IMG/VR virus record: IMGVR_UViG_2585427766_000010
Coordinates: 1 to 11,370 of that record
DNA length: 11,370 bases
Origin: a virus
Lineage: Duplodnaviria > Heunggongvirae > Uroviricota > Caudoviricetes
Strand: one strand, 5' to 3'
Under the pieces are notes generated by a model. The model was not told the DNA's origin, did not search any database, and saw only the letters and a list, made by a program, of their open reading frames with translations. This document shows positions 1-11,370 of this stretch, piece by piece (position 1 is the stretch's first letter; each line of letters begins with the position of its first letter). The position numbers and the translations under genes are program-made.

Positions 1-46
1 CCGCCCACGCAATATTGCCTTCAATTATATTGTGAGAACCGCATAA
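1..46 (+). CDS. Tail fiber protein, extreme C-terminal end only (5' part lies upstream of the window); cassette Sv_c
   Basis: Frame starting at base 2 reads RPRNIAFNYIVRTA then TAA at 44-46, matching the last 14 residues of the two minus-strand fiber cassettes (TRPRNIAFNYIVRAA, TRPRNVAFNYIVRAA). The stop overlaps the tfa ATG at 46 (TAATG). Confidence 0.6.
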   Translation, partial: RPRNIAFNYIVRTA

Positions 47-657
47 TGAATAACGCGATATTAAATGATGACCTTATTGCCGTACAGGCAGGAAACATCG
101 TCGTTTATAACTATGATGGTGAGACACGGGAATATATTTCCGAATCAACTGAATATCTTGCTGTGGGTGTCGGTATTCCGGCAAATTCCTGTTTAGATGC
201 CCCGGGCGCACATAAAGCGGGCTATGCTATCCGCCGTTCGGAGAATTTAAGTTCATGGGAGTATGCGCCAGACCATCGTGGTGAAACCGTCTATAGCACT
301 GACACGGGAAACACCGAAGAAATCACGGCGCTGGGTGACTACCCGAAAACTACAACCACTATCGCCCCGTTAACACCATACGATAAATGGGATGGTGAAA
401 AATGGGTGACAGATACTGAGGCACAACATCGTGCCGCAGTAGAAGCGGCAGAAACCAAGCGCCAGTCACTGGCTGATGCGGCAATGGCTTCCATAAGTCT
501 GATTCAGTTGAAGTTGCAGGCCGGGCGGAAGTTGACGCAGGCAGAAACCACCCGGCTTAATGCCGTGCTGGATTATATAGACGCGCTGAACGCAATGGAT
601 ATAAACATGGTACCAGATATCAACTTGCCGGAAATACCACTGGCAGCAGCCAGTTGA
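46..657 (+). CDS. Tail fiber assembly protein (Tfa; lambda Tfa / Mu U-like chaperone)
   Basis: 203-aa ORF with ATG at 46 and TGA at 655-657. Motifs typical of the Tfa family as I recall them: PDHRGETVY, KWDGEKWVTDTEAQ, and a C-terminal ...MVPDINLPEIP segment. It follows a fiber C-terminus on the same strand with start/stop overlap. Confidence 0.88.
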   Translation: MNNAILNDDLIAVQAGNIVVYNYDGETREYISESTEYLAVGVGIPANSCLDAPGAHKAGYAIRRSENLSSWEYAPDHRGETVYSTDTGNTEEITALGDYPKTTTTIAPLTPYDKWDGEKWVTDTEAQHRAAVEAAETKRQSLADAAMASISLIQLKLQAGRKLTQAETTRLNAVLDYIDALNAMDINMVPDINLPEIPLAAAS

Positions 658-663
658 ATATAA

Positions 664-1140
664 CTAAGCCGCCCTCACGATATAGTTAAATGCAATATTG
701 CGGGGGCGGGTTTCACTACCACCTGTGTTACCAATACTTCCTCGTGAATGAAGCGTTGGTGATGGAATCAAACTCCCTCCTGTATTTGTGGCATCAAGCC
801 CCCTGCCTTGTGTATATGTTTTTTTGAAAATCGTAGCCAACTCCCATTCATCTTTTGTGTCATATCCATCGTTAGCTACAACAATATGGCGGTGTTTTTC
901 CAACATCCCGTTTTGAATGCTCAATAAAGCGCGTGCCGCATCAATTCCTCGCCCATCATCCCAGCCACGGATAAATTCACCGCGTAAATCCGGTAATTTA
1001 TTGGTGGGGTAGGCCTTTGCCAGATTGGGGTACATTTCAGAAGAAAATGCTGCACCGTTACATTTCAGCCAGCCCGTTGGTGGTGTGGCTGAGGGCCATG
1101 GAACAGGCACACCAACGGGCAGTGCAGAGCCTTCCCCCAA
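664..1140 (-). CDS. Alternative tail-fiber C-terminal cassette (Sv_b): promoterless, start-less copy of the fiber distal domain
   Basis: The open frame runs from a stop at 1162-1164 down to TAG at 664-666. The track start at 1140 is a TTG with no Shine-Dalgarno upstream. The first ~65 aa (GLGEGSALPVGVPVPWPSATPPTGWLKCNGAAFSSEM...LPDLRGEFIRGWDDGRG) are near-identical to residues ~219-285 of the upstream fiber; the middle diverges; the last 15 aa are conserved again. Confidence 0.6.
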   Translation of the reverse strand: MGEGSALPVGVPVPWPSATPPTGWLKCNGAAFSSEMYPNLAKAYPTNKLPDLRGEFIRGWDDGRGIDAARALLSIQNGMLEKHRHIVVANDGYDTKDEWELATIFKKTYTQGRGLDATNTGGSLIPSPTLHSRGSIGNTGGSETRPRNIAFNYIVRAA

Positions 1141-1145
1141 ACCAA
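926..1145 (-). repeat. Direct repeat copy A (~220 bp), 5' homology block of cassette Sv_b
   Basis: Aligned by eye against 1440-1659 at a constant 514-bp offset; roughly 88-90% identical, differences mostly transitions. Homology stops abruptly at both ends. Confidence 0.8.
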
Positions 1146-1157
1146 CGTTTTCATGCG
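1132..1157. other. Candidate serine-invertase crossover site (site 2), 12-2-12 layout TTCCCCCAAACC-AA-CGTTTTCATGCG
   Basis: Sits exactly at the upstream edge of the cassette homology and spans the fiber stop codon. The left half-site matches the TTCnnnnAAACC pattern of hix/gix/cix sites as I remember them; the right half-site is degenerate. Confidence 0.4.
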
Positions 1158-2305
1158 GCTCTTACGATGTAATTAAATGCAACGTTGCGAGGGCGAGTTT
1201 CTGTACCTACATTTCCACTAATTTCACCAAACCGTCTTACATTACGAGAGCTAATGGCTCGTAGTGAGGAAGGCACCTTTAAACCGGGTTCGTCTGTTTT
1301 AACTATTCCCCCGTCCCCGTATGTAGCCAGTATTCCAGGGTTTACTCCTTCCCGTGTGCTTCCCGTGGCAAGTCCATCCCCGGTCCATAATTCCATATAG
1401 TGTGCATGATCCAAAATTGTGTGTGGCTGCCAATTAAGCAAAGCGCGGCCAGCATCCACCCCGCGCCCATCATCCCAGCCGCGAATAAATTCTCCCCGTA
1501 AATCCGGTAATTTATTGGCGGGGTAGGCCTTTGCCAGATTGGGGGACATTTCAGAAGAAAATGCTGCACCGTTACATTTCAGCCACCCCGTTGGCGGCGT
1601 GGCTGAAGGCCATGGAACGGGCACACCAACGGGCAGCGCCGAGCCTTCCCCTAAACCAAGGTAATTGAGGACTTCTTTTATACTGCCCATAGCGATAATA
1701 GCGCGACCAATAGCTGTAAGGGTTGTCAGTGCTGCGCGGTCTGCTCCGGTAAAATAAGGCAACCGATCTGCTGCAGTGGCAAGTCCTGCCAGAGCAGTGA
1801 GCGTGGCATCTGCCGGTTGTTTTCCGTTTGCCAGATCGTATGCAGCCTTGACCGCTTTCGGTGTGGCGGCCAGTATTTCAGACGTGCTGTTGATGTCACT
1901 GCTCAATTGTACGGTGCCTTTTGCCGTCAGCGAGGCAGCAGGCACTCCCGTTATCTGACTCCACGGGTGAGTATGGCTGACGGGGGCCTTGCCGGCAGCC
2001 AGGTCATATGCAGCCTTGACGGCCTTTGGTGTGGCGGCCAGCGTTTCAGAGGTGCTGTTGGTGGCACTGCTCAGTTGGGTGAACCCCTTAGCTGTCAGTG
2101 TCGCGTCCGGGTGGTTACGGGAACGTACGTGTTCAGCCAGTGACTGTGCGGCTTCCTCCGTTTTTTTCTTCAGCCATTTCGTCCTGTTTGCCAGTTGCCG
2201 GGGGGCTCGATTTGATATCCCGTCTGCACCACCCAGAACCGGATCTGATGTCTCCAGTTGATAGATATTTTCTTCCCACTTTTCTGTTTCATTCAGGTTT
2301 CCCAT
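1151..2305 (-). CDS. Tail fiber protein (Sc constant part plus Sv_a distal cassette)
   Basis: Long ORF with stop TGA at 1151-1153. Preferred start is the ATG at 2305-2303, which has GGGAG 9 nt upstream; the track start (TTG at 2311) is too close to that GGGAG to be likely. Contains two copies of the phage fiber repeat (LTAKG..QLSS...STSE.LAATPKAVKAAYDLA.GK) and a collar-like domain (WLKCNGAAF...LPDLRGEFIRGWDDGRG). Confidence 0.88.
   Translation of the reverse strand: MGNLNETEKWEENIYQLETSDPVLGGADGISNRAPRQLANRTKWLKKKTEEAAQSLAEHVRSRNHPDATLTAKGFTQLSSATNSTSETLAATPKAVKAAYDLAAGKAPVSHTHPWSQITGVPAASLTAKGTVQLSSDINSTSEILAATPKAVKAAYDLANGKQPADATLTALAGLATAADRLPYFTGADRAALTTLTAIGRAIIAMGSIKEVLNYLGLGEGSALPVGVPVPWPSATPPTGWLKCNGAAFSSEMSPNLAKAYPANKLPDLRGEFIRGWDDGRGVDAGRALLNWQPHTILDHAHYMELWTGDGLATGSTREGVNPGILATYGDGGIVKTDEPGLKVPSSLRAISSRNVRRFGEISGNVGTETRPRNVAFNYIVRAA
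1440..1659 (-). repeat. Direct repeat copy B (~220 bp), 5' homology block of cassette Sv_a inside the fiber gene
   Basis: Partner of 926-1145; same orientation, 514 bp apart. Confidence 0.8.
1646..1671. other. Candidate serine-invertase crossover site (site 1), TTCCCCTAAACC-AA-GGTAATTGAGGA, at the Sc/Sv_a junction
   Basis: Same left half-site and AA core as site 2; the right half (GGTAATTGAGGA) partly matches the GGTTTnnGAnAA pattern. Lies in the same codon phase as site 2 relative to the cassette frames (core in codon positions 2-3 of ...NYL / ...ENV before GLGEGS). Confidence 0.45.
1820..2098 (-). repeat. Tandem in-frame repeat inside the fiber shaft (two units, period 168 bp / 56 aa)
   Basis: tgcagccttgac recurs at 1841 and 2009; the encoded units LTAKGFTQLSSATNSTSETLAATPKAVKAAYDLAAGK and LTAKGTVQLSSDINSTSEILAATPKAVKAAYDLANGK match the common phage tail fiber repeat. 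Confidence 0.75.
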
Positions 2306-2307
2306 AA

Positions 2308-2886
2308 TCAACTGCTCCCGTGGTTATAACTGCCATCATGGATGGCGGTATTGTTATAGCGAATGGCCACAGACTGATACTCCAGGCTGGCCAGATGGCA
2401 GCGGGCCGGTGCAAATGCAGCCAGCGTCTGACGCAGCATCGCGGCCTGATCGTTAGTAATGGGCTGTTTCAGAATAACGCGATAAACTGCCCAGGCGGCT
2501 GCATCTCCATGAACAAACAGTCCGTTATAGCTGCGATTGCCGTCGTAACTGAGACGACCTGTGCCTTCAATCAGATCCACTTCACCAAAGCCAAAACGGC
2601 GGATAACTTCCCGGATTGACCACGGCGTCCCTTTATACCGGTGCAGTTCGATGGCTGCTTTTATAAGCATGCGGCGAACATCGTCCGATTCCGCCAGCTC
2701 CCAGCCATCGCCAGACAGTGAGAACTGCTCGCCCAGCCATGGCAGCGCGGAACTGTCGACGATATCGACGAGAAAGACCATCAGTACGCTCAGGTCGATG
2801 TTATCCAGCCGTCCTGCCAGTCTTCCCAGCGTCCTGAGACTGATATCACCCTCAAGCGGTGGCGGGAGTTGTAATGGCTCAGTCAT
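2308..2886 (-). CDS. Baseplate/tail protein, P2 gpI-like (Mu gp48-like)
   Basis: 192-aa ORF, ATG at 2886-2884 with GGAG upstream. Its stop overlaps the fiber start region and its start overlaps the gpJ 3' end by 8 bp. Size and position (between the J-like gene and the fiber) fit gpI. Confidence 0.8.
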   Translation of the reverse strand: MTEPLQLPPPLEGDISLRTLGRLAGRLDNIDLSVLMVFLVDIVDSSALPWLGEQFSLSGDGWELAESDDVRRMLIKAAIELHRYKGTPWSIREVIRRFGFGEVDLIEGTGRLSYDGNRSYNGLFVHGDAAAWAVYRVILKQPITNDQAAMLRQTLAAFAPARCHLASLEYQSVAIRYNNTAIHDGSYNHGSS

Positions 2887-6322: not shown

Positions 6323-7206
6323 CACACACTCCTCGTCAGTATTCTGGCGGCCATTGCACTTAATCCCGGAGACATGCGGTTGAATGCTGTGCCGGCGGCG
6401 TTAAGCTGCCCGGAAACGGTATCCAGAGCATCTGCAATATTTCTTTTGTCCACACCACTCAGCGCAGACTGTGCCTGCTGTACATACGTGGCTGCTTCGC
6501 TGGCTGTTCTGGCCAGACTGATGGCATCGGGCATGGATTCAGAGAGTGCGTTAAACGCCGGAACACTTTTCCCCAGAGCCCCGGAGATATTACCCAGTCC
6601 GCTCATCAGCCCCGGCACACGGGTCAGTGCGACAACGGGGTTATCCTTCATTTTCTGTGTCACCCGAACGGCGCTGATAGTGGTCTGGAGTACAGACTGC
6701 GCCTGTTTCGCATAGTTGACGCCGTTGCGGATGAACTGCGCCACCCCTGAAGGTGAAGGTATGGCACCGGAGACCGCCCCGACACCCGGGAGCTTCGTGC
6801 GTATTGCCGGTGGTTGCAGAGGATTTTTCGGGTCACCGGTGTATTCCCGGAGAGACACGGTGGCACTGACAGCCAGCACGTTGCCGGTACTGTCAGTCTG
6901 CTCGCTGGTTGCAGTCACATCGGTAATCACGAACCAGCCGCGATAGTCACCGTTGCCGAAGACCAGCGCCAGTGCCTGATGGGCTTTCATGGCTGTTCGC
7001 AGTCTCGCCAGCTCCACATCGGGTACACAATAATGCTGATGGAAAACCAGAGTTATCTGGATTTCGTCCAGCCTGTCGCCGACGAACTGCAGGCCAGGCT
7101 TACCCCCGATGCGGGCATGCTCCGCATAATCGACGCCGAACGTGGCCTCGAAGCCGTCCCAGTAGGTAATCAGCTCAAACTCAATATCACCCAGTACGGC
7201 AAACAT
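6322..7206 (-). CDS. Tail protein with P2 gpU-like N-terminal domain and an Ala/Ser-rich C-terminal extension
   Basis: 294-aa ORF, ATG at 7206-7204, abutting the tape measure stop. The N-terminal ~130 aa (MFAVLGDIEFELITYWDG...GLQFVGDRLDEIQITLVFHQ) resemble gpU; the C-terminal ~160 aa are low-complexity. Confidence 0.65.
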   Translation of the reverse strand: MFAVLGDIEFELITYWDGFEATFGVDYAEHARIGGKPGLQFVGDRLDEIQITLVFHQHYCVPDVELARLRTAMKAHQALALVFGNGDYRGWFVITDVTATSEQTDSTGNVLAVSATVSLREYTGDPKNPLQPPAIRTKLPGVGAVSGAIPSPSGVAQFIRNGVNYAKQAQSVLQTTISAVRVTQKMKDNPVVALTRVPGLMSGLGNISGALGKSVPAFNALSESMPDAISLARTASEAATYVQQAQSALSGVDKRNIADALDTVSGQLNAAGTAFNRMSPGLSAMAARILTRSV

Positions 7207-9106
7207 CAGCGGTACTCCTTACGTTGTTTCTGAGCCAGCAGACGCTCCAGCATTTTTTCCAGCTCATGCAGACTCATATTCAGGGCACCAGTCAGTCCTG
7301 CAGGCGCTGTGGTTTCCCTGCCATTGAGGAAAAACTGAGGATTAAAGCTGACCTGGATACCACCAGACGTTCCACCGCCGGTTGCAGCTGCACCACGGCC
7401 TGAATATCCGGCAGCCAGGATTTCAGGCGAGGGGATACGGGGAACATCCGGTGTCATCTCATTTGCCAGACGTTGCCCTGGTAAAATCGATGCCCGGGTG
7501 GAGAGCGGAATAGCGGGCATGGAAGACAAACTATTGATTACGGCTCCGATCGCATTTTTAGCAGACGACATAAACCCATTGATATCGGGCAACGGCATAC
7601 TGAAGCGAACACCTGAAGTGTTATCCCGTATTTCTGGCCCCTGGATGCTCACGGGCATTCTGGGGAGCAGTTCACTGGCCATTCGCTGCCCGGCCAGAGC
7701 TGCAAGCGGAGTGGTCCGCTGCAGGCCAATGGCGGCCCCCTGCGCGATATTGTCACCAAAGCCCATAAACACGCGGCTCGGCGAATGAATGCCCAGCTTT
7801 TCGCTGAACCAGCCACTGATGCTGTCACCCATTCCGGTTACACTGGATTTGAGCGACTCCCATTTGTTTTTGATACCGTTAATCAGACCATCGACAAGAT
7901 GGCCACCGAAGTCGGTAAACTTTGCCGGCAGATCAACACCAAGATATTTCAGCGCAGCTGCAAAGGCTTTATAGAGCAGGCCTGCCGGCGACCAGTTAAT
8001 CAGTAACTTACCAATTCCCACAATGCCGCCGTTAAAGGCTTCCTGAATGTCTGCCCAGCGCTGTTTAAACCAGCCACTGACTGCCCCCCAGTTGCGGTAG
8101 ATAAGGTAAGCTGCTGCCGCGACAGCGGTGATAACGAGACCGATGGGATTCATCATCAGCGCACGTCCAATCCAGAGAACAGCACGTCCGGCGAGCATAA
8201 TTCCGCGAACCAGCCCCTCGGAGAGCACGCCACTCAGTGTTCTGGCTCCTCTGGCGACGGCGCTAAATCCGGTCACCAGCCAGCGGAGCTTACCGCCTTG
8301 CCCCAGTGCGAGCGACAGACGAAGCCAGTTGGCCCGAAGTAAAACAGCATTTTTCCAGACACTTACAAAGGGGGAAATAAGGAGATTCAGCCCCAGTTTG
8401 AGACCAACAGTCGCTATCTTAATCGCAAGGAGCGCACTGATGAGCTTAAAAGCCCCACTGACAAATTGCGGGTGAGTCGCTACCCAGTGTTTTGCCCCCT
8501 GAATGAGTGGAAGCAGTTCCTGAGTCAAAGAAATAAAAGATGGAGCTAATTGATCGCCCAGCGTAATTGCCAGATCGCGACTGCTGACCATAAGTGTTTT
8601 AGTGGCTTCAAGGGGAGATTTCAGCCGCTGATCATAAGCACTGGCAAGCAAATCGTTATCCGCAGCCCTGAGAGCACCGGCACGGATCTCTCGATATCTG
8701 TCCATGTTGGCCAGCATCGGGCGGATAAATGCCATGACCTGCATATCCGCGAACATATCGCCCAGACCAAAGTTTTTCGCCAGAGCCTGAAGTGCCTCAT
8801 CTCTTGCCGTATCATTCTTTATTTTCATGGCTGATTTGAAGCCGGCCAGCGCTTCGGGGCTTTTGGCATTGAGGTAACGTTCTATAACACTCAACATCCC
8901 TTCAATCGGAGAGATCCCCGCAGCTTTATAACTCGCAATAGATCCCTGCAAATCAATACCCAGATCAGCAAACTGTTTCTGAGTATCGCGGGCAAAAATT
9001 TTGGTAAGAAAGTTTTTAAAATTATTGGCTGCTTCGTCGGTGGAACCTGCACCGATTTTTGCTATCTGGAGACTGGCCCCGATTTCAGCAACAGCCTCTT
9101 TTCCAC
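7206..9106 (-). CDS. Tail tape measure protein, 5'-interrupted by the IS66-family insertion (probable pseudogene/fragment)
   Basis: Stop TGA at 7208-7206. The frame is open upstream well past the track start (TTG at 8951) to about 9106, where the sequence becomes the IS end (in-frame stop at 9155-9153 inside the IS). Contains the GIHSPSRVF-type motif and long hydrophobic helices typical of tape measure proteins. Confidence 0.75.
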
Positions 9107-9192
9107 TGTAAGCGTAAAGCCAATGCCGTCTGTAACACCTGCTCCTTGCAGACTAAATTAGAGCTCCTTCTAAATTAGACGGAGTTCTATTG

Positions 9193-9627
9193 ATGGATAA
9201 ACCTACAGACTGGCGCTCCGGAACCCGCCGGATATTTTCTAATGAATTTAAACTTCATATGGTTGAACTGGCTTCGAAACCAAATGCCAATGTTGCACAA
9301 CTGGCCCGGGAACATGGCGTTGATAACAACCTGATTTTTAAATGGCTACGCCTCTGGCAAAGAGAAGGACGTATTTCTCGTAGAATGCCTCCAACTATTG
9401 TAGGCCCTACAGTATCACAATCTTTTCCGGCCTCTCCGACTCTGGTTCCAGTGGAACTTATCGACACCCCGCGCTGTGCTACAGATGCTCCTGCTCCGGA
9501 GGCATTATCAGTTGCTTGTGCAGCTTCCTGCCATGTGGAATTCCATTACGGTAAAATGATGCTGGAAAATCCTTCACCAGAGCTGCTCACGGTGTTGATC
9601 CGTGAGCTGACCGGGAGGGGACGATGA
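9193..9627 (+). CDS. tnpA: IS66-family accessory protein TnpA (orf1)
   Basis: ATG at 9193 with GGAG 8 nt upstream (the track start at 9190 is TTG); about 144 aa. Stop overlaps the tnpB start (ATGA at 9624-9627). Confidence 0.8.
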   Translation: MDKPTDWRSGTRRIFSNEFKLHMVELASKPNANVAQLAREHGVDNNLIFKWLRLWQREGRISRRMPPTIVGPTVSQSFPASPTLVPVELIDTPRCATDAPAPEALSVACAASCHVEFHYGKMMLENPSPELLTVLIRELTGRGR

Positions 9628-9974
9628 TTTCACTCCCATCAGGTACCCGTATCTGGCTCGTTGCCGGCGTTACTGATATGCGTAAATCCTTCAACGGTCT
9701 GGGGGAGCAGATACAGCATGTGCTGGATGATAACCCCTTCTCCGGTCACCTGTTTATCTTCCGTGGCCGACGGGGAGACACGATTAAAATCCTGTGGGCT
9801 GATGCTGATGGTCTGTGCCTGTTCACCAAACGCCTTGAGGAAGGTCAGTTTATCTGGCCTGCGGTGCGTGACGGTAAGATATCCATTACCCGCTCGCAAC
9901 TGGCAATGCTCCTCGATAAGCTGGACTGGCGTCAGCCAAAAACATCCCGCCTTAACGCACTGACAATGTTGTAA
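9624..9974 (+). CDS. tnpB: IS66-family accessory protein TnpB (orf2)
   Basis: 116 aa; MISLPSGTRIWLVAGVTDMRKSFNGL...IKILWADADGLCLF... is the characteristic IS66 Orf2 sequence as I recall it. Confidence 0.85.
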   Translation: MISLPSGTRIWLVAGVTDMRKSFNGLGEQIQHVLDDNPFSGHLFIFRGRRGDTIKILWADADGLCLFTKRLEEGQFIWPAVRDGKISITRSQLAMLLDKLDWRQPKTSRLNALTML

Positions 9975-10004
9975 AAAACTCCTGACCGCATTATAAAAAC
10001 GGCC

Positions 10005-11370
10005 ATGAGTCAGAAATACCTCATTCGCATCGCTGAGCTGGAAAGGCTGCTCTCTGAGCAGGCTGAAGCCCTCCGTCAGAAAGACCAGCAACTGAGTCTG
10101 GTTGAAGAGACGGAGGCCTTCCTGCGCTCTGCACTGGCACGTGCCGAAGAAAAGATCGAAGAAGATGAACGGGAAATAGAGCATCTGCGGGCTCAGATAG
10201 AAAAACTGCGCCGGATGCTGTTCGGAACCCGTTCTGAAAAACTGCGTCGTGAGGTTGAACAGGCTGAAGCCCTGCTGAAACAACGCGAGCAGGAAAGCGA
10301 TCGTTACAGTGGGCGTGAGGATGACCCGCTGGTTCCCCGCCAGTTGCGACAGTCGCGCCATCGTCGTCCGTTACCGGCACATCTCCCCCGTGAAATATAC
10401 CGCCTGGAGCCTGAAGAAAGCTGTTGCCCGGAGTGTGGCGGTGAGCTGGATTATCTGGGGGAAGTCAGCGCAGAACAACTGGAACTGGTGAGCAGCGCCC
10501 TGAAAGTGATCCGCACAGAACGGGTAAAAAAAGCCTGTACAAAATGTGACTGCATCGTTGAAGCACCGGCACCATCCCGTCCGATAGAGCGTGGTATCGC
10601 GGGCCCGGGGTTACTTGCCCGCGTGTTAACGGGAAAATACTGCGAACACCTGCCACTGTATCGTCAGAGTGAAATCTTTGCCCGCCAGGGTGTCGAACTG
10701 AGCCGTGCCTTACTCTCCAACTGGGTTGATGCGTGCTGCCAGTTAATGACGCCGCTGAATGATGCCCTGTACAGTTATGTGATGAACACCCGCAAGGTTC
10801 ACACTGATGACACACCAGTAAAAGTACTGGCACCGGGCAGGAAGAAGGCGAAAACAGGATATATCTGGACGTATGTCCGGGATGACCGAAATGCCGGTTC
10901 GCCAGAACCTCCGGCGGTCTGGTTCGCCTACTCACCGGACCATCAGGGTAAACATCCGGAGCAACACCTTCGTCCCTTCCGGGGTATCCTGCAGGCAGAT
11001 GCGTTCGCAGGTTACGATCGGCTGTTCAGTGCCGAACGTGAAGGCGGCGCGTTGACGGAAGCAGGATGCTGGGCTCATGCGCGGCGCAAAATCCACGATG
11101 TATATATCAGTACCAAAAGCGCGACGGCGGAAGAAGCACTGAAACTAATCGGCGAACTGTACGCCATTGAGCACGAAATACGCGGGTTGCCGGTGTCTGA
11201 ACGCCTGGCGGTCAGGCAAATGCAGAGTAAACCGCTACTGACTTCCCTGTATAAGCTGATGCAGGAGAAAGAACACACGTTATCGAAAAAATGCCGTCTG
11301 AGAGATGCGTTCCGGTATATCAGGAAGCACTGGGTTGCGTTGTGCAACTTCTGTGATGACGGTCTGGCGG
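10005..11370 (+). CDS. tnpC: IS66-family transposase TnpC (orf3), 3'-partial (runs off the window)
   Basis: ATG at 10005, open to the end of the window (over 455 codons), so absent from the stop-delimited ORF track. Has an N-terminal coiled-coil/leucine-zipper-like region and a CPECGG...CTKCDC zinc-ribbon motif, as in IS66 transposases. Confidence 0.8.
   Translation, partial: MSQKYLIRIAELERLLSEQAEALRQKDQQLSLVEETEAFLRSALARAEEKIEEDEREIEHLRAQIEKLRRMLFGTRSEKLRREVEQAEALLKQREQESDRYSGREDDPLVPRQLRQSRHRRPLPAHLPREIYRLEPEESCCPECGGELDYLGEVSAEQLELVSSALKVIRTERVKKACTKCDCIVEAPAPSRPIERGIAGPGLLARVLTGKYCEHLPLYRQSEIFARQGVELSRALLSNWVDACCQLMTPLNDALYSYVMNTRKVHTDDTPVKVLAPGRKKAKTGYIWTYVRDDRNAGSPEPPAVWFAYSPDHQGKHPEQHLRPFRGILQADAFAGYDRLFSAEREGGALTEAGCWAHARRKIHDVYISTKSATAEEALKLIGELYAIEHEIRGLPVSERLAVRQMQSKPLLTSLYKLMQEKEHTLSKKCRLRDAFRYIRKHWVALCNFCDDGLA

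What the first reader, a model, noticed from the sequence alone, without database searches (positions are those of the whole stretch)
1132..1671. Two 26-bp hix/gix/cix-like crossover motifs exactly at the cassette homology boundaries
Site 1 (1646-1671, TTCCCCTAAACC AA GGTAATTGAGGA) and site 2 (1132-1157, TTCCCCCAAACC AA CGTTTTCATGCG) have the 12-2-12 layout and the AAACC-nn-GGTTT-like core of serine-invertase sites; the consensus I compare against is recalled from memory, not looked up. Both sit where cassette homology ends and unrelated upstream sequence begins, and both are in the same codon phase, so any exchange at the core gives an in-frame fiber. Site 2 also overlaps the stop codon of the expressed fiber.
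Basis: partly seen in the sequence, partly recalled or inferred. Interest (0 to 1): 0.7.

Follow-up and report, generated by a model that had tools for sequence, protein, structure and literature searches.

The report
Prophage tail-fibre invertase crossover sites

Summary
Both 26-mers are present exactly as described. They match published Min (p15B) crossover sites at 22/26 and 24/26 positions; no other 26-mer in the window exceeds 18/26. They lie at the 5' ends of two tandem tail-fibre tip cassettes (Sv1 expressed, Sv2 silent), in the same codon phase, and site 2 overlaps the Sv1 stop codon.

Near-identical E. coli prophages carry the same DNA in other arrangements, with breakpoints at the AA cores:
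- DLI.5a has window 1-1659 (99.94% identical) inverted relative to the constant fibre part.
- cS51a has window 1-1145 (100% identical) fused to that constant part.
- HSP60 versus cS51a shows inversion at the internal site.

SNPs bracket the site-1 exchange to the 7 bp AAACCAA, which excludes general homologous recombination.

All four relatives examined have a third, inverted site and an adjacent invertase, 72-82% identical to Gin, Cin and Pin. In the window both would lie beyond the left contig end.

The constant-side half of site 1 is identical to a crossover site reported for EC958 prophage Phi2, where PacBio reads showed inversion.

One correction: sites 1 and 2 are direct repeats, so each recombines with the unseen inverted site rather than with the other.

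Verdict: a three-site chromosomal member of the Din/Min multiple-inversion family. Low novelty.

The parts
1646..1671 (+). Crossover site 1, at the junction of the constant fibre part (Sc) and cassette Sv1. Left half TTCCCCTAAACC lies on the cassette side, the core AA is at 1658-1659, and right half GGTAATTGAGGA lies on the Sc side.
   Evidence: Read. It matches mixQ''R' at 22/26. The right half is identical to the EC958 Phi2_5prime site. Homology to DLI.5a flips orientation exactly after 1659.
1132..1157 (+). Crossover site 2, an internal site between the end of Sv1 and the start of Sv2. Left half TTCCCCCAAACC, core AA at 1144-1145, right half CGTTTTCATGCG, which contains the Sv1 stop codon (TGA at 1153-1151 on the - strand).
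   Evidence: Read. It matches mixN''O' at 24/26. In cS51a, window 1-1145 is 100% identical and is joined to Sc exactly after the core.
1660..2305 (-). Constant part (Sc) of the tail-fibre gene. The ATG is at 2305 and it contains two 56-aa Phage_fiber_2 repeats.
   Evidence: ORF. Pfam PF03406 is on record for the called gene. It is co-linear at 99.5% with DLI.5a and cS51a.
1151..1659 (-). Cassette Sv1, the expressed tip (169 aa, collar domain), including the stop codon.
   Evidence: It is 96% identical in protein to the silent cassette next to the invertase in KOr024.
664..1145 (-). Cassette Sv2, a silent tip (160 aa, collar domain), in tandem with and in the same orientation as Sv1.
   Evidence: It is the expressed tip in cS51a, where the Sc::Sv2 junction query matches at 100%.
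46..657 (+). Tail-fibre assembly (chaperone) gene. It belongs to cassette Sv3 and is antisense to the fibre operon in this isomer.
   Evidence: ORF. Caudo_TAP Pfam families are on record. It is annotated as a tail fiber assembly protein in relatives.
2..46 (+). Last 14 codons and stop of a third cassette, Sv3 (RPRNIAFNYIVRTA*). The rest of Sv3, site 3 and the invertase gene lie beyond the contig end.
   Evidence: Sequence. The full Sv3 was read in KOr024, cS51a and DLI.5a. The window is a whole contig.
926..1148 (.). Conserved 5' portion of the cassettes (Collar-domain N-terminus). It is repeated at 1440-1662.
   Evidence: Direct repeat D1, 90% identical, spacing 514.

Best explanation
The left 1.7 kb of the window is most of the invertible region of a prophage tail-fibre host-range switch of the Din (Hin/Gin/Cin/Pin/Min) serine-invertase type, in its multi-site, Min-like form. 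The fibre gene on the - strand consists of a constant part, Sc, fused at site 1 to tip cassette Sv1. Directly downstream, site 2 precedes a promoterless, start-less second tip, Sv2. A third tip, Sv3, with its chaperone gene faces the opposite way.

Inferred from relatives: a third site in inverted orientation and the invertase gene lie just beyond the contig end. The invertase would make a 2-bp staggered cut at the AA core of two inverted sites and exchange the strands. Site 1 x site 3 flips the whole segment, giving Sc::Sv3 followed by tfa. In that isomer, the Sc site x the now-inverted site 2 gives Sc::Sv2. Because every core sits at the same codon position, each product is an in-frame fibre with a different receptor-binding tip. 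Four arrangements and three fibre proteins are possible.

Sites 1 and 2 are direct repeats and are not expected to recombine productively with each other.

Shown here: the site sequences, their reading frame, the natural isomers and the breakpoint positions. Inferred: the presence and activity of an invertase in this particular strain, Fis and enhancer dependence, and the host-range consequence.
For: 1. Site identity. Site 1 matches published mix sites at 22/26 and site 2 at 24/26, against a window background of at most 18/26. Chance expectation for the shared 17-mer pattern is 0. gix, cix and pix read from the Mu, P1 and e14 records share the same TTCyCyyAAACC-AA-sGT pattern.
2. The right half of site 1 is identical to the EC958 Phi2 5' crossover site, and PacBio reads showed that this region inverts (PMC4134206). 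EC958 Phi2 also has an internal third site.
3. DLI.5a carries the same prophage, 99.5% identical over 4.8 kb. Window 1-1659 is 99.94% identical there but inverted relative to Sc, and the match ends at core base 1659.
4. SNPs at -6, -18 and -21 on the cassette side and at +2 on the other side bracket the exchange to the 7 bp AAACCAA.
5. In cS51a, window 1-1145 is 100% identical and is fused to Sc at the site 2 core. HSP60 has the same cassette set as cS51a with the Sv3-tfa-Sv2 sub-segment inverted.
6. KOr024, cS51a, EC958, DLI.5a and HSP60 each have three sites with AA cores, one of them inverted relative to the other two.
7. All five carry an adjacent recombinase gene. The two distinct proteins are 72-82% identical to Gin, Cin and PinE, have the RVSTNDQ catalytic-serine motif, and at gene position 19-90 match the P1 enhancer at 54-57 of 72 positions, similar to Gin versus Cin.
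8. Cassette proteins share about 75 N-terminal collar-domain residues and about 15 C-terminal residues, with a variable middle.
Against: The third site and the invertase gene are not in the window, because the contig ends inside Sv3. Activity in this strain is therefore unproven. The prophage is defective: an IS66-family element truncates the tape-measure gene. No complete E. coli chromosome in the collection carries the Sc::Sv1 junction at high identity; the only full-length matches are roughly 86% identical and sit on 90-100 kb records. This isomer therefore rests on one short-read contig. No recombination assay was possible.
Confidence: 0.9

Rival explanations
1. The sites are fossils in this strain. 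The architecture is that of an invertase switch, but the prophage is decayed and no cognate invertase acts, so the arrangement is frozen.
For: The tape-measure gene is interrupted by an IS66-family element. The invertase is not visible because the contig ends at Sv3. The contig runs uninterrupted through both sites, so there is no sign of a mixed population at these junctions.
Against: Both sites are intact, at 22-24/26 to validated sites, and both cassettes are open reading frames. All the near-identical prophages examined keep an intact invertase gene. Din invertases are reported to act in trans; the EC958 authors inferred this for Phi4, whose own invertase gene is truncated (PMC4134206). 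This rival concerns present activity, not what the sites are.
Confidence: 0.07
2. The cassette boundaries and the isomers result from general homologous recombination, or a recent tandem duplication, involving the roughly 220-bp conserved cassette 5' regions. The 26-mers would then be incidental.
For: Cassettes share 90% identical 220-nt stretches in direct and inverted orientation, which could support RecA-dependent inversion or duplication.
Against: The exchange between the window and DLI.5a is bracketed to 7 bp at the core. Cassette-specific SNPs at -6, -18 and -21 stay with the cassette. In cS51a the Sv2 sequence is 100% identical right up to the core. The motif matches experimentally defined invertase sites far above background. 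An invertase gene always accompanies the module.
Confidence: 0.02
3. Sites 1 and 2 recombine with each other, which is the literal reading of 'any exchange at the core'. This would excise Sv1 and bring Sv2 under Sc by deletion.
For: Window 1-1145 joined to 1660 onward, as in cS51a, is formally the product of such a deletion.
Against: cS51a still has three cassettes. It differs from HSP60 by an inversion using the internal site, not by a loss. DNA inversion systems with several sites prefer inversion between reverse-oriented sites over deletion between same-oriented ones (general statement in PMC11850598; the topological filter of the Fis-enhancer invertasome is established knowledge, see PMC3798978).
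Confidence: 0.01

Closest known systems
Min multiple-inversion system of plasmid p15B (mix sites; Sandmeier et al. 1990, 1992, cited from PMC3241671 Table 3 and the reference lists)
   Same: The left half-site is identical, TTCCCC(C/T)AAACC with an AA core. Internal sites have a right half of the form CGTTTT.ATG.. that overlaps the stop codon of the preceding cassette. The Sc-side right half begins GGTAAT. There are more than two sites, some in direct orientation, and the tip cassettes are tandem. A P1-like plasmid, pSOI121-1, carries about 86% identical Sc::Sv DNA with five cassettes, one tfa and a recombinase.
   Different: There are three sites and three cassettes instead of six sites. The system sits in a chromosomal prophage whose tail module contains P2-type genes (gpU, X, D, V, W, J, I by Pfam), not on a P1-like plasmid.
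E. coli EC958 prophage Phi2 invertible tail-fibre region (Forde et al. 2014, PMC4134206)
   Same: It is the same prophage family: tail genes are 98.9% identical, the invertase protein WP_000904922.1 is the same as in DLI.5a, cS51a and HSP60, and the Sc half-site GGTAATTGAGGA is identical. Inversion was observed there directly with PacBio reads.
   Different: It carries different cassette alleles, 45-52% identical in protein. The passages of the paper returned by my term search list only the two outer sites. The internal third site at L007 4980-5005 was found here.
Pin/pix of e14, Cin/cix of P1 and Gin/gix of Mu
   Same: These have the same 12-2-12 site layout at the Sc/Sv junction of a tail-fibre gene, an adjacent invertase, and in-frame tip switching. 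pixR (TTCTCCCAAACC AA CGTTTATGAAAA) and cixR (TTCTCTTAAACC AA GGTATTGGATAA) resemble sites 2 and 1 at 18/26 and 20/26.
   Different: They are two-site systems with one invertible segment, and each tip has its own tfa. Here two tips are tandem and lack their own tfa. The gix core is GA rather than AA.

Membership tests
Din-family serine-invertase crossover site (hix/gix/cix/pix/mix) | A 26-bp site made of two imperfectly symmetric 12-bp half-sites around a 2-bp core | tested here: met
   Both sites have the 12-2-12 layout. The left halves are identical to mix left halves, and the right halves are degenerate in the same way as mix, pixR and cixL.
Din-family serine-invertase crossover site (hix/gix/cix/pix/mix) | Sequence similarity to experimentally defined sites well above background | tested here: met
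   The sites score 22/26 and 24/26 against published mix sites. The best of all other 26-mers in the window is 18/26. The shared pattern is expected 0.00 times by chance.
Din-family serine-invertase crossover site (hix/gix/cix/pix/mix) | Identical core dinucleotide in all partner sites | tested here: met
   The core is AA in both window sites and in all three sites of KOr024, cS51a, EC958, DLI.5a and HSP60.
Din-family serine-invertase crossover site (hix/gix/cix/pix/mix) | A partner site in inverted orientation on the same molecule | tested here: inconclusive
   There is none in the window, where both sites are direct. The contig ends inside Sv3. In the 99.5% identical prophage of DLI.5a the inverted site lies at the Sv3 start, 405-430 nt beyond the position matching window base 1.
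Din-family serine-invertase crossover site (hix/gix/cix/pix/mix) | An adjacent Din-type invertase gene with a catalytic serine and an enhancer in its 5' coding region | tested here: inconclusive
   It is not in the window. It is present next to the module in all five relatives examined. The proteins are 72-82% identical to Gin, Cin and PinE, carry RVSTNDQ, and match the P1 enhancer stretch at 54-57 of 72 positions.
Din-family serine-invertase crossover site (hix/gix/cix/pix/mix) | Strand exchange actually occurs at the core | tested here: met
   The evidence is comparative. Breakpoints between the window and DLI.5a, and between the window and cS51a, fall at core bases 1659 and 1145. The site-1 exchange is bracketed to 7 bp by SNPs. 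Inversion in the same prophage family was observed by PacBio (PMC4134206). There is no biochemical test.
Din-family serine-invertase crossover site (hix/gix/cix/pix/mix) | Dependence on Fis, an enhancer and DNA supercoiling | not testable with these tools
   This requires an in vitro or genetic assay.
Min-type multiple-inversion system | More than two crossover sites, in both orientations, delimiting overlapping invertible segments | tested here: met
   The window has two direct sites. Relatives have three sites in total, one of them inverted. Isomers using the outer pair and the internal site were both observed.
Min-type multiple-inversion system | Tandem 3' cassettes in which the internal site overlaps the stop codon of the preceding cassette | tested here: met
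   The right half of site 2, CGTTTTCATGCG, is the reverse complement of ...GCA TGA AAACG. Published mix internal sites read CGTTTTTATGCC or CGTTTTTATGTG.
Min-type multiple-inversion system | Identity with the p15B locus itself (P1-like plasmid, six mix sites) | tested here: not met
   This is a chromosomal prophage with P2-type tail genes and three sites in relatives. The matches on 90-100 kb records (P1-like where examined) are only about 86% identical. It is the same kind of system but not the same element.

The most novel reading that the evidence does not exclude
The whole switch, meaning the invertible segment plus the invertase gene, may behave as a portable module whose edge is the crossover site itself. 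A P2-like prophage (KOr024) and the unrelated-Sc prophage of this window share window 1-1659 at 98% identity, ending exactly at the site 1 core. KOr024 and DLI.5a share segment plus invertase at 92%, starting inside the Sc-side site. This would fit occasional invertase-mediated, or site-targeted, exchange between co-resident prophages. A second open point is that three tips share a single chaperone gene, which is antisense to the fibre operon whenever Sv1 (in this arrangement) or Sv2 is expressed. Tip choice may therefore be coupled to the presence or absence of the chaperone.
Probability: 0.15. Interest if true: 0.4.

Novelty: new member of a known kind. Interest (0 to 1): 0.15.

Why it matters
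The practical value lies in annotation and assembly. These sites explain why the short 'phage tail protein' ORFs next to the fibre gene are silent alternative 3' cassettes rather than separate genes. They explain why homology to hundreds of E. coli genomes stops abruptly at base 1659. They may also explain why draft assemblies break in this region. Biologically this is one more example of programmed host-range variation in a prophage, a mechanism understood since the 1980s and 1990s. It does not open a new question.

Tried and rejected
1. I tried to read the original Min papers (PMC53420, PMC206102) and a review on serine DNA invertases whose PMC id (PMC4384473) I recalled from memory. None is held. 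The mix sequences were therefore taken from Table 3 of PMC3241671.
2. I looked for the window's own isomer (the Sc::Sv1 junction) in 5,426 complete E. coli genomes. No chromosome has it at high identity; the only full-length matches listed are at roughly 86% on 90-100 kb records. I could not confirm the arrangement independently.
3. I tried to see the DNA left of the window through the exact fibre protein. The only contig carrying it is the window itself, so the invertase and third site of the source strain remain unseen.
4. I considered that cS51a is a deletion product of site 1 x site 2. I rejected this because cS51a keeps three cassettes and is the inversion partner of HSP60.
5. I considered homologous recombination in the 220-bp repeats. 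I rejected this because of the SNP bracket.
6. A literature search for recent descriptions of three-cassette chromosomal systems returned nothing specific.
Full report
**What is in the sequence**

The window is an entire 11,370-bp draft contig, JOQO01000076.1 of GCA_000714135.1. It carries a prophage tail module on the - strand, with these Pfam families on record:
- tape measure
- gpU-like
- X
- D
- V
- W
- J
- I
- a fibre gene with Phage_fiber_2 and Collar domains

The right end is an IS66-family element that truncates the tape-measure gene.

At the left end the layout is as follows:
- Fibre gene, 2305 to 1151 on the - strand.
- A 158-aa Collar-domain ORF directly downstream, 1140 to 664 on the - strand.
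- A tail-fibre assembly gene, 46-657 on the + strand.
- Ahead of that gene, the last 14 codons of another fibre tip on the + strand (2-46, RPRNIAFNYIVRTA*).

**Checking the observation**

- The shared pattern TTCCCCYAAACCAASGT occurs only at these two places. It is expected 0.00 times in 200 dinucleotide-preserving shuffles.
- The direct repeat 926-1148 / 1440-1662 (90% identical, spacing 514) ends 3 nt beyond each AA core. Cassette homology therefore does stop at the sites.
- Translated from the codon that spans the core, the two cassettes read L/V-GLGEGSALPVGVPVPWP..., so they are in the same phase.
- The TGA stop of the expressed fibre (1153-1151) lies inside the right half of site 2.

**Comparison with validated sites**

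I read gix, cix and pix from the Mu, P1 and K-12 e14 records, at the annotated segment boundaries for Mu and P1. I took the published table of Din-family sites from PMC3241671.

| Window site | Best published match | Identity |
|---|---|---|
| Site 2 | mixN''O' (TTCCCCCAAACC AA CGTTTTTATGTG) | 24/26 |
| Site 1 | mixQ''R' (TTCCCCCAAACC AA GGTAATCAAGAA) | 22/26 |

Identity to hix, gix, cix and pix sites is 11-21/26. The best score of any other 26-mer in the window, on either strand, against any published site is 18/26.

The Sc-side half of site 1 (GGTAATTGAGGA) is identical to the 'Phi2_5prime' crossover site of E. coli EC958. In that strain PacBio reads showed the region in both orientations (PMC4134206).

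**Related loci show the recombination products**

Megablast of window 1-2400 against complete E. coli genomes gives many hits that stop at 1659 or 1662. Five loci were read in detail.

| Strain | Prophage | Arrangement |
|---|---|---|
| DLI.5a | Same prophage, 99.5% identical over 4.8 kb | Window 1-1659 is 99.94% identical but inverted relative to Sc: Sc::Sv3, tfa, then Sv2 and Sv1 reversed, then a recombinase gene. The match ends at core base 1659. |
| cS51a | Same prophage | Window 1-1145 at 100.000% identity, joined directly to Sc after the site 2 core. Sv3-tfa and a fourth cassette allele lie reversed next to the same recombinase. |
| HSP60 | Same prophage | Same cassette set as cS51a, with the Sv3-tfa-Sv2 sub-segment in the other orientation. 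The internal site is therefore used for inversion, not deletion. |
| KOr024 | P2-like | The same three cassettes at 96-99% protein identity, in the DLI.5a-type arrangement. |
| EC958 Phi2 | Same prophage family | Three different cassette alleles, with three sites. |

In every locus there are three sites with an AA core. One is inverted relative to the other two, and each sits at a cassette start.

**Site-specific versus homologous exchange**

I aligned the arms around the sites of the window and DLI.5a.
- The window's Sv1 arm is identical to DLI.5a's Sv1 arm from -112 through the core and first differs at +2.
- The window's Sc arm is identical to DLI.5a's Sc arm from -5 onward. It differs at -6, -18, -21 and further out, which are positions diagnostic of Sv1 versus Sv3.

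The exchange is therefore confined to the 7 bp AAACCAA that contain the core. Recombination elsewhere in the 220-bp conserved cassette region would have moved those SNPs.

The base immediately 3' of the core is G next to Sc and C elsewhere. It always stays with the non-cassette side, so the core-spanning codon is Leu in expressed fibres and Val in silent cassettes.

**The recombinase**

The gene next to the module in cS51a, EC958, DLI.5a and HSP60 encodes one and the same 190-aa protein, WP_000904922.1. KOr024 has an 85% identical protein. Both proteins:
- are 72-82% identical to Gin, Cin and PinE;
- carry the N-terminal RVSTNDQ catalytic-serine motif;
- match the annotated P1 recombinational enhancer (gene position 19-90) at 54-57 of 72 positions. 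Gin matches at 55 of 72.

None of this lies in the window. By analogy with DLI.5a, the third site should lie 405-430 nt left of base 1, with the invertase gene just beyond it.

**Mechanism**

Shown:
- the site sequences, their phase and their orientation;
- the existence of the isomers predicted by pairwise inversions;
- breakpoints at the cores.

Inferred from established knowledge of Din invertases (the Fis-enhancer invertasome, PMC3798978; preference for inversion over deletion in multi-site systems, PMC11850598): the invertase cuts with a 2-bp stagger at AA in two inverted sites and exchanges strands.

The possible arrangements follow from this.
- From the window's arrangement (Sc|Sv1>|Sv2> <tfa <Sv3|), site 1 x site 3 gives Sc::Sv3-tfa.
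- In that isomer, the Sc site x the now-inverted internal site gives Sc::Sv2.
- From the window's arrangement, site 2 x site 3 leaves Sv1 expressed but reorders the silent cassettes.

In all there are four arrangements and three fibre proteins.

Sites 1 and 2 are direct repeats and should not recombine productively with each other.

**Comparison with what is known**

The closest system is Min of plasmid p15B. It shares these features:
- the same left half-site and AA core;
- the same stop-codon-overlapping internal right halves;
- the same GGTAAT Sc half;
- tandem cassettes.

P1-like plasmids in E. coli carry about 86% identical Sc::Sv DNA. pSOI121-1, for example, has five cassettes, one tfa and a recombinase.

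The present locus is a reduced version in a chromosomal prophage, with three sites in its near-identical relatives. It belongs to the same prophage family as EC958 Phi2. It is a new member of a known kind, not a new kind.

**Limits**

- The Sc::Sv1 isomer is seen only in this short-read contig.
- The invertase of the source strain is unseen.
- The prophage is defective.
- No biochemical test was possible.

None of these affects what the motifs are. They affect only whether the switch is currently active in this strain.

Noticed in passing
window 9190-11370, and 7206-8951 (- strand): An IS66-family element occupies the right end of the contig: an HTH_Tnp_1 ORF at 9190-9627, TnpB_IS66 at 9624-9974, and a DDE_Tnp_IS66 transposase running to the contig end. 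The tape-measure ORF beside it is only 581 aa, whereas the cS51a gene spans 2,691 nt. The prophage is therefore probably defective.
   Followed up: partly
window 1821-1930 and 1989-2098 (- strand, fibre constant part): The constant fibre part has two copies of a 168-nt (56-aa) Phage_fiber_2 repeat. The cS51a fibre has five copies (384 aa versus 543 aa). This is either real copy-number variation or a repeat collapsed in the short-read assembly.
   Followed up: partly
window 46-657 (+ strand): There is only one tail-fibre assembly gene for three tip cassettes, and it follows Sv3. In this isomer, and in the Sc::Sv2 isomer, it is antisense to the fibre operon. Sv1 and Sv2 would therefore be made without a co-transcribed chaperone. 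The P1-like plasmid pSOI121-1 (L009) likewise has five cassettes and one tfa.
   Followed up: no
window 1-1659; L001 5577-8267 versus L008 4577-7267: The invertible segment is shared at 98% identity with a P2-like prophage (KOr024) whose fibre constant part is unrelated. The homology ends exactly at the site 1 core. KOr024 and DLI.5a share the segment plus the invertase gene at 92%, starting inside the Sc-side site. The switch looks like a portable module bounded by its own crossover site.
   Followed up: partly
window 1138 and 1652 (site position 7): Position 7 of the left half-site is C or T. It is not linked to cassette identity across strains: Sv1 has T here and in DLI.5a but C in KOr024, and Sv2 has C here but T in KOr024. 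The same C/T variation is seen among the published mix sites.
   Followed up: no
window 1-45 versus 665-709 and 1155-1207: The last roughly 15 codons of all three cassettes (ETRPRN(I/V)AFNYIVR(A/T)A*) are conserved, giving a 45-nt inverted repeat (80%) and a 53-nt direct repeat (79%). The cassettes thus have conserved ends and a variable middle of about 70-80 aa. The contig's left end falls in this conserved tail.
   Followed up: partly
L007 4980-5005 (E. coli EC958 prophage Phi2): EC958 Phi2 has an internal third crossover site, TTCCCCCAAACC AA CGTTTCTATGCC, between its two silent cassettes. The passages of the 2014 paper returned by my term search list only the two outer sites; I did not read the whole paper.
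   Followed up: partly
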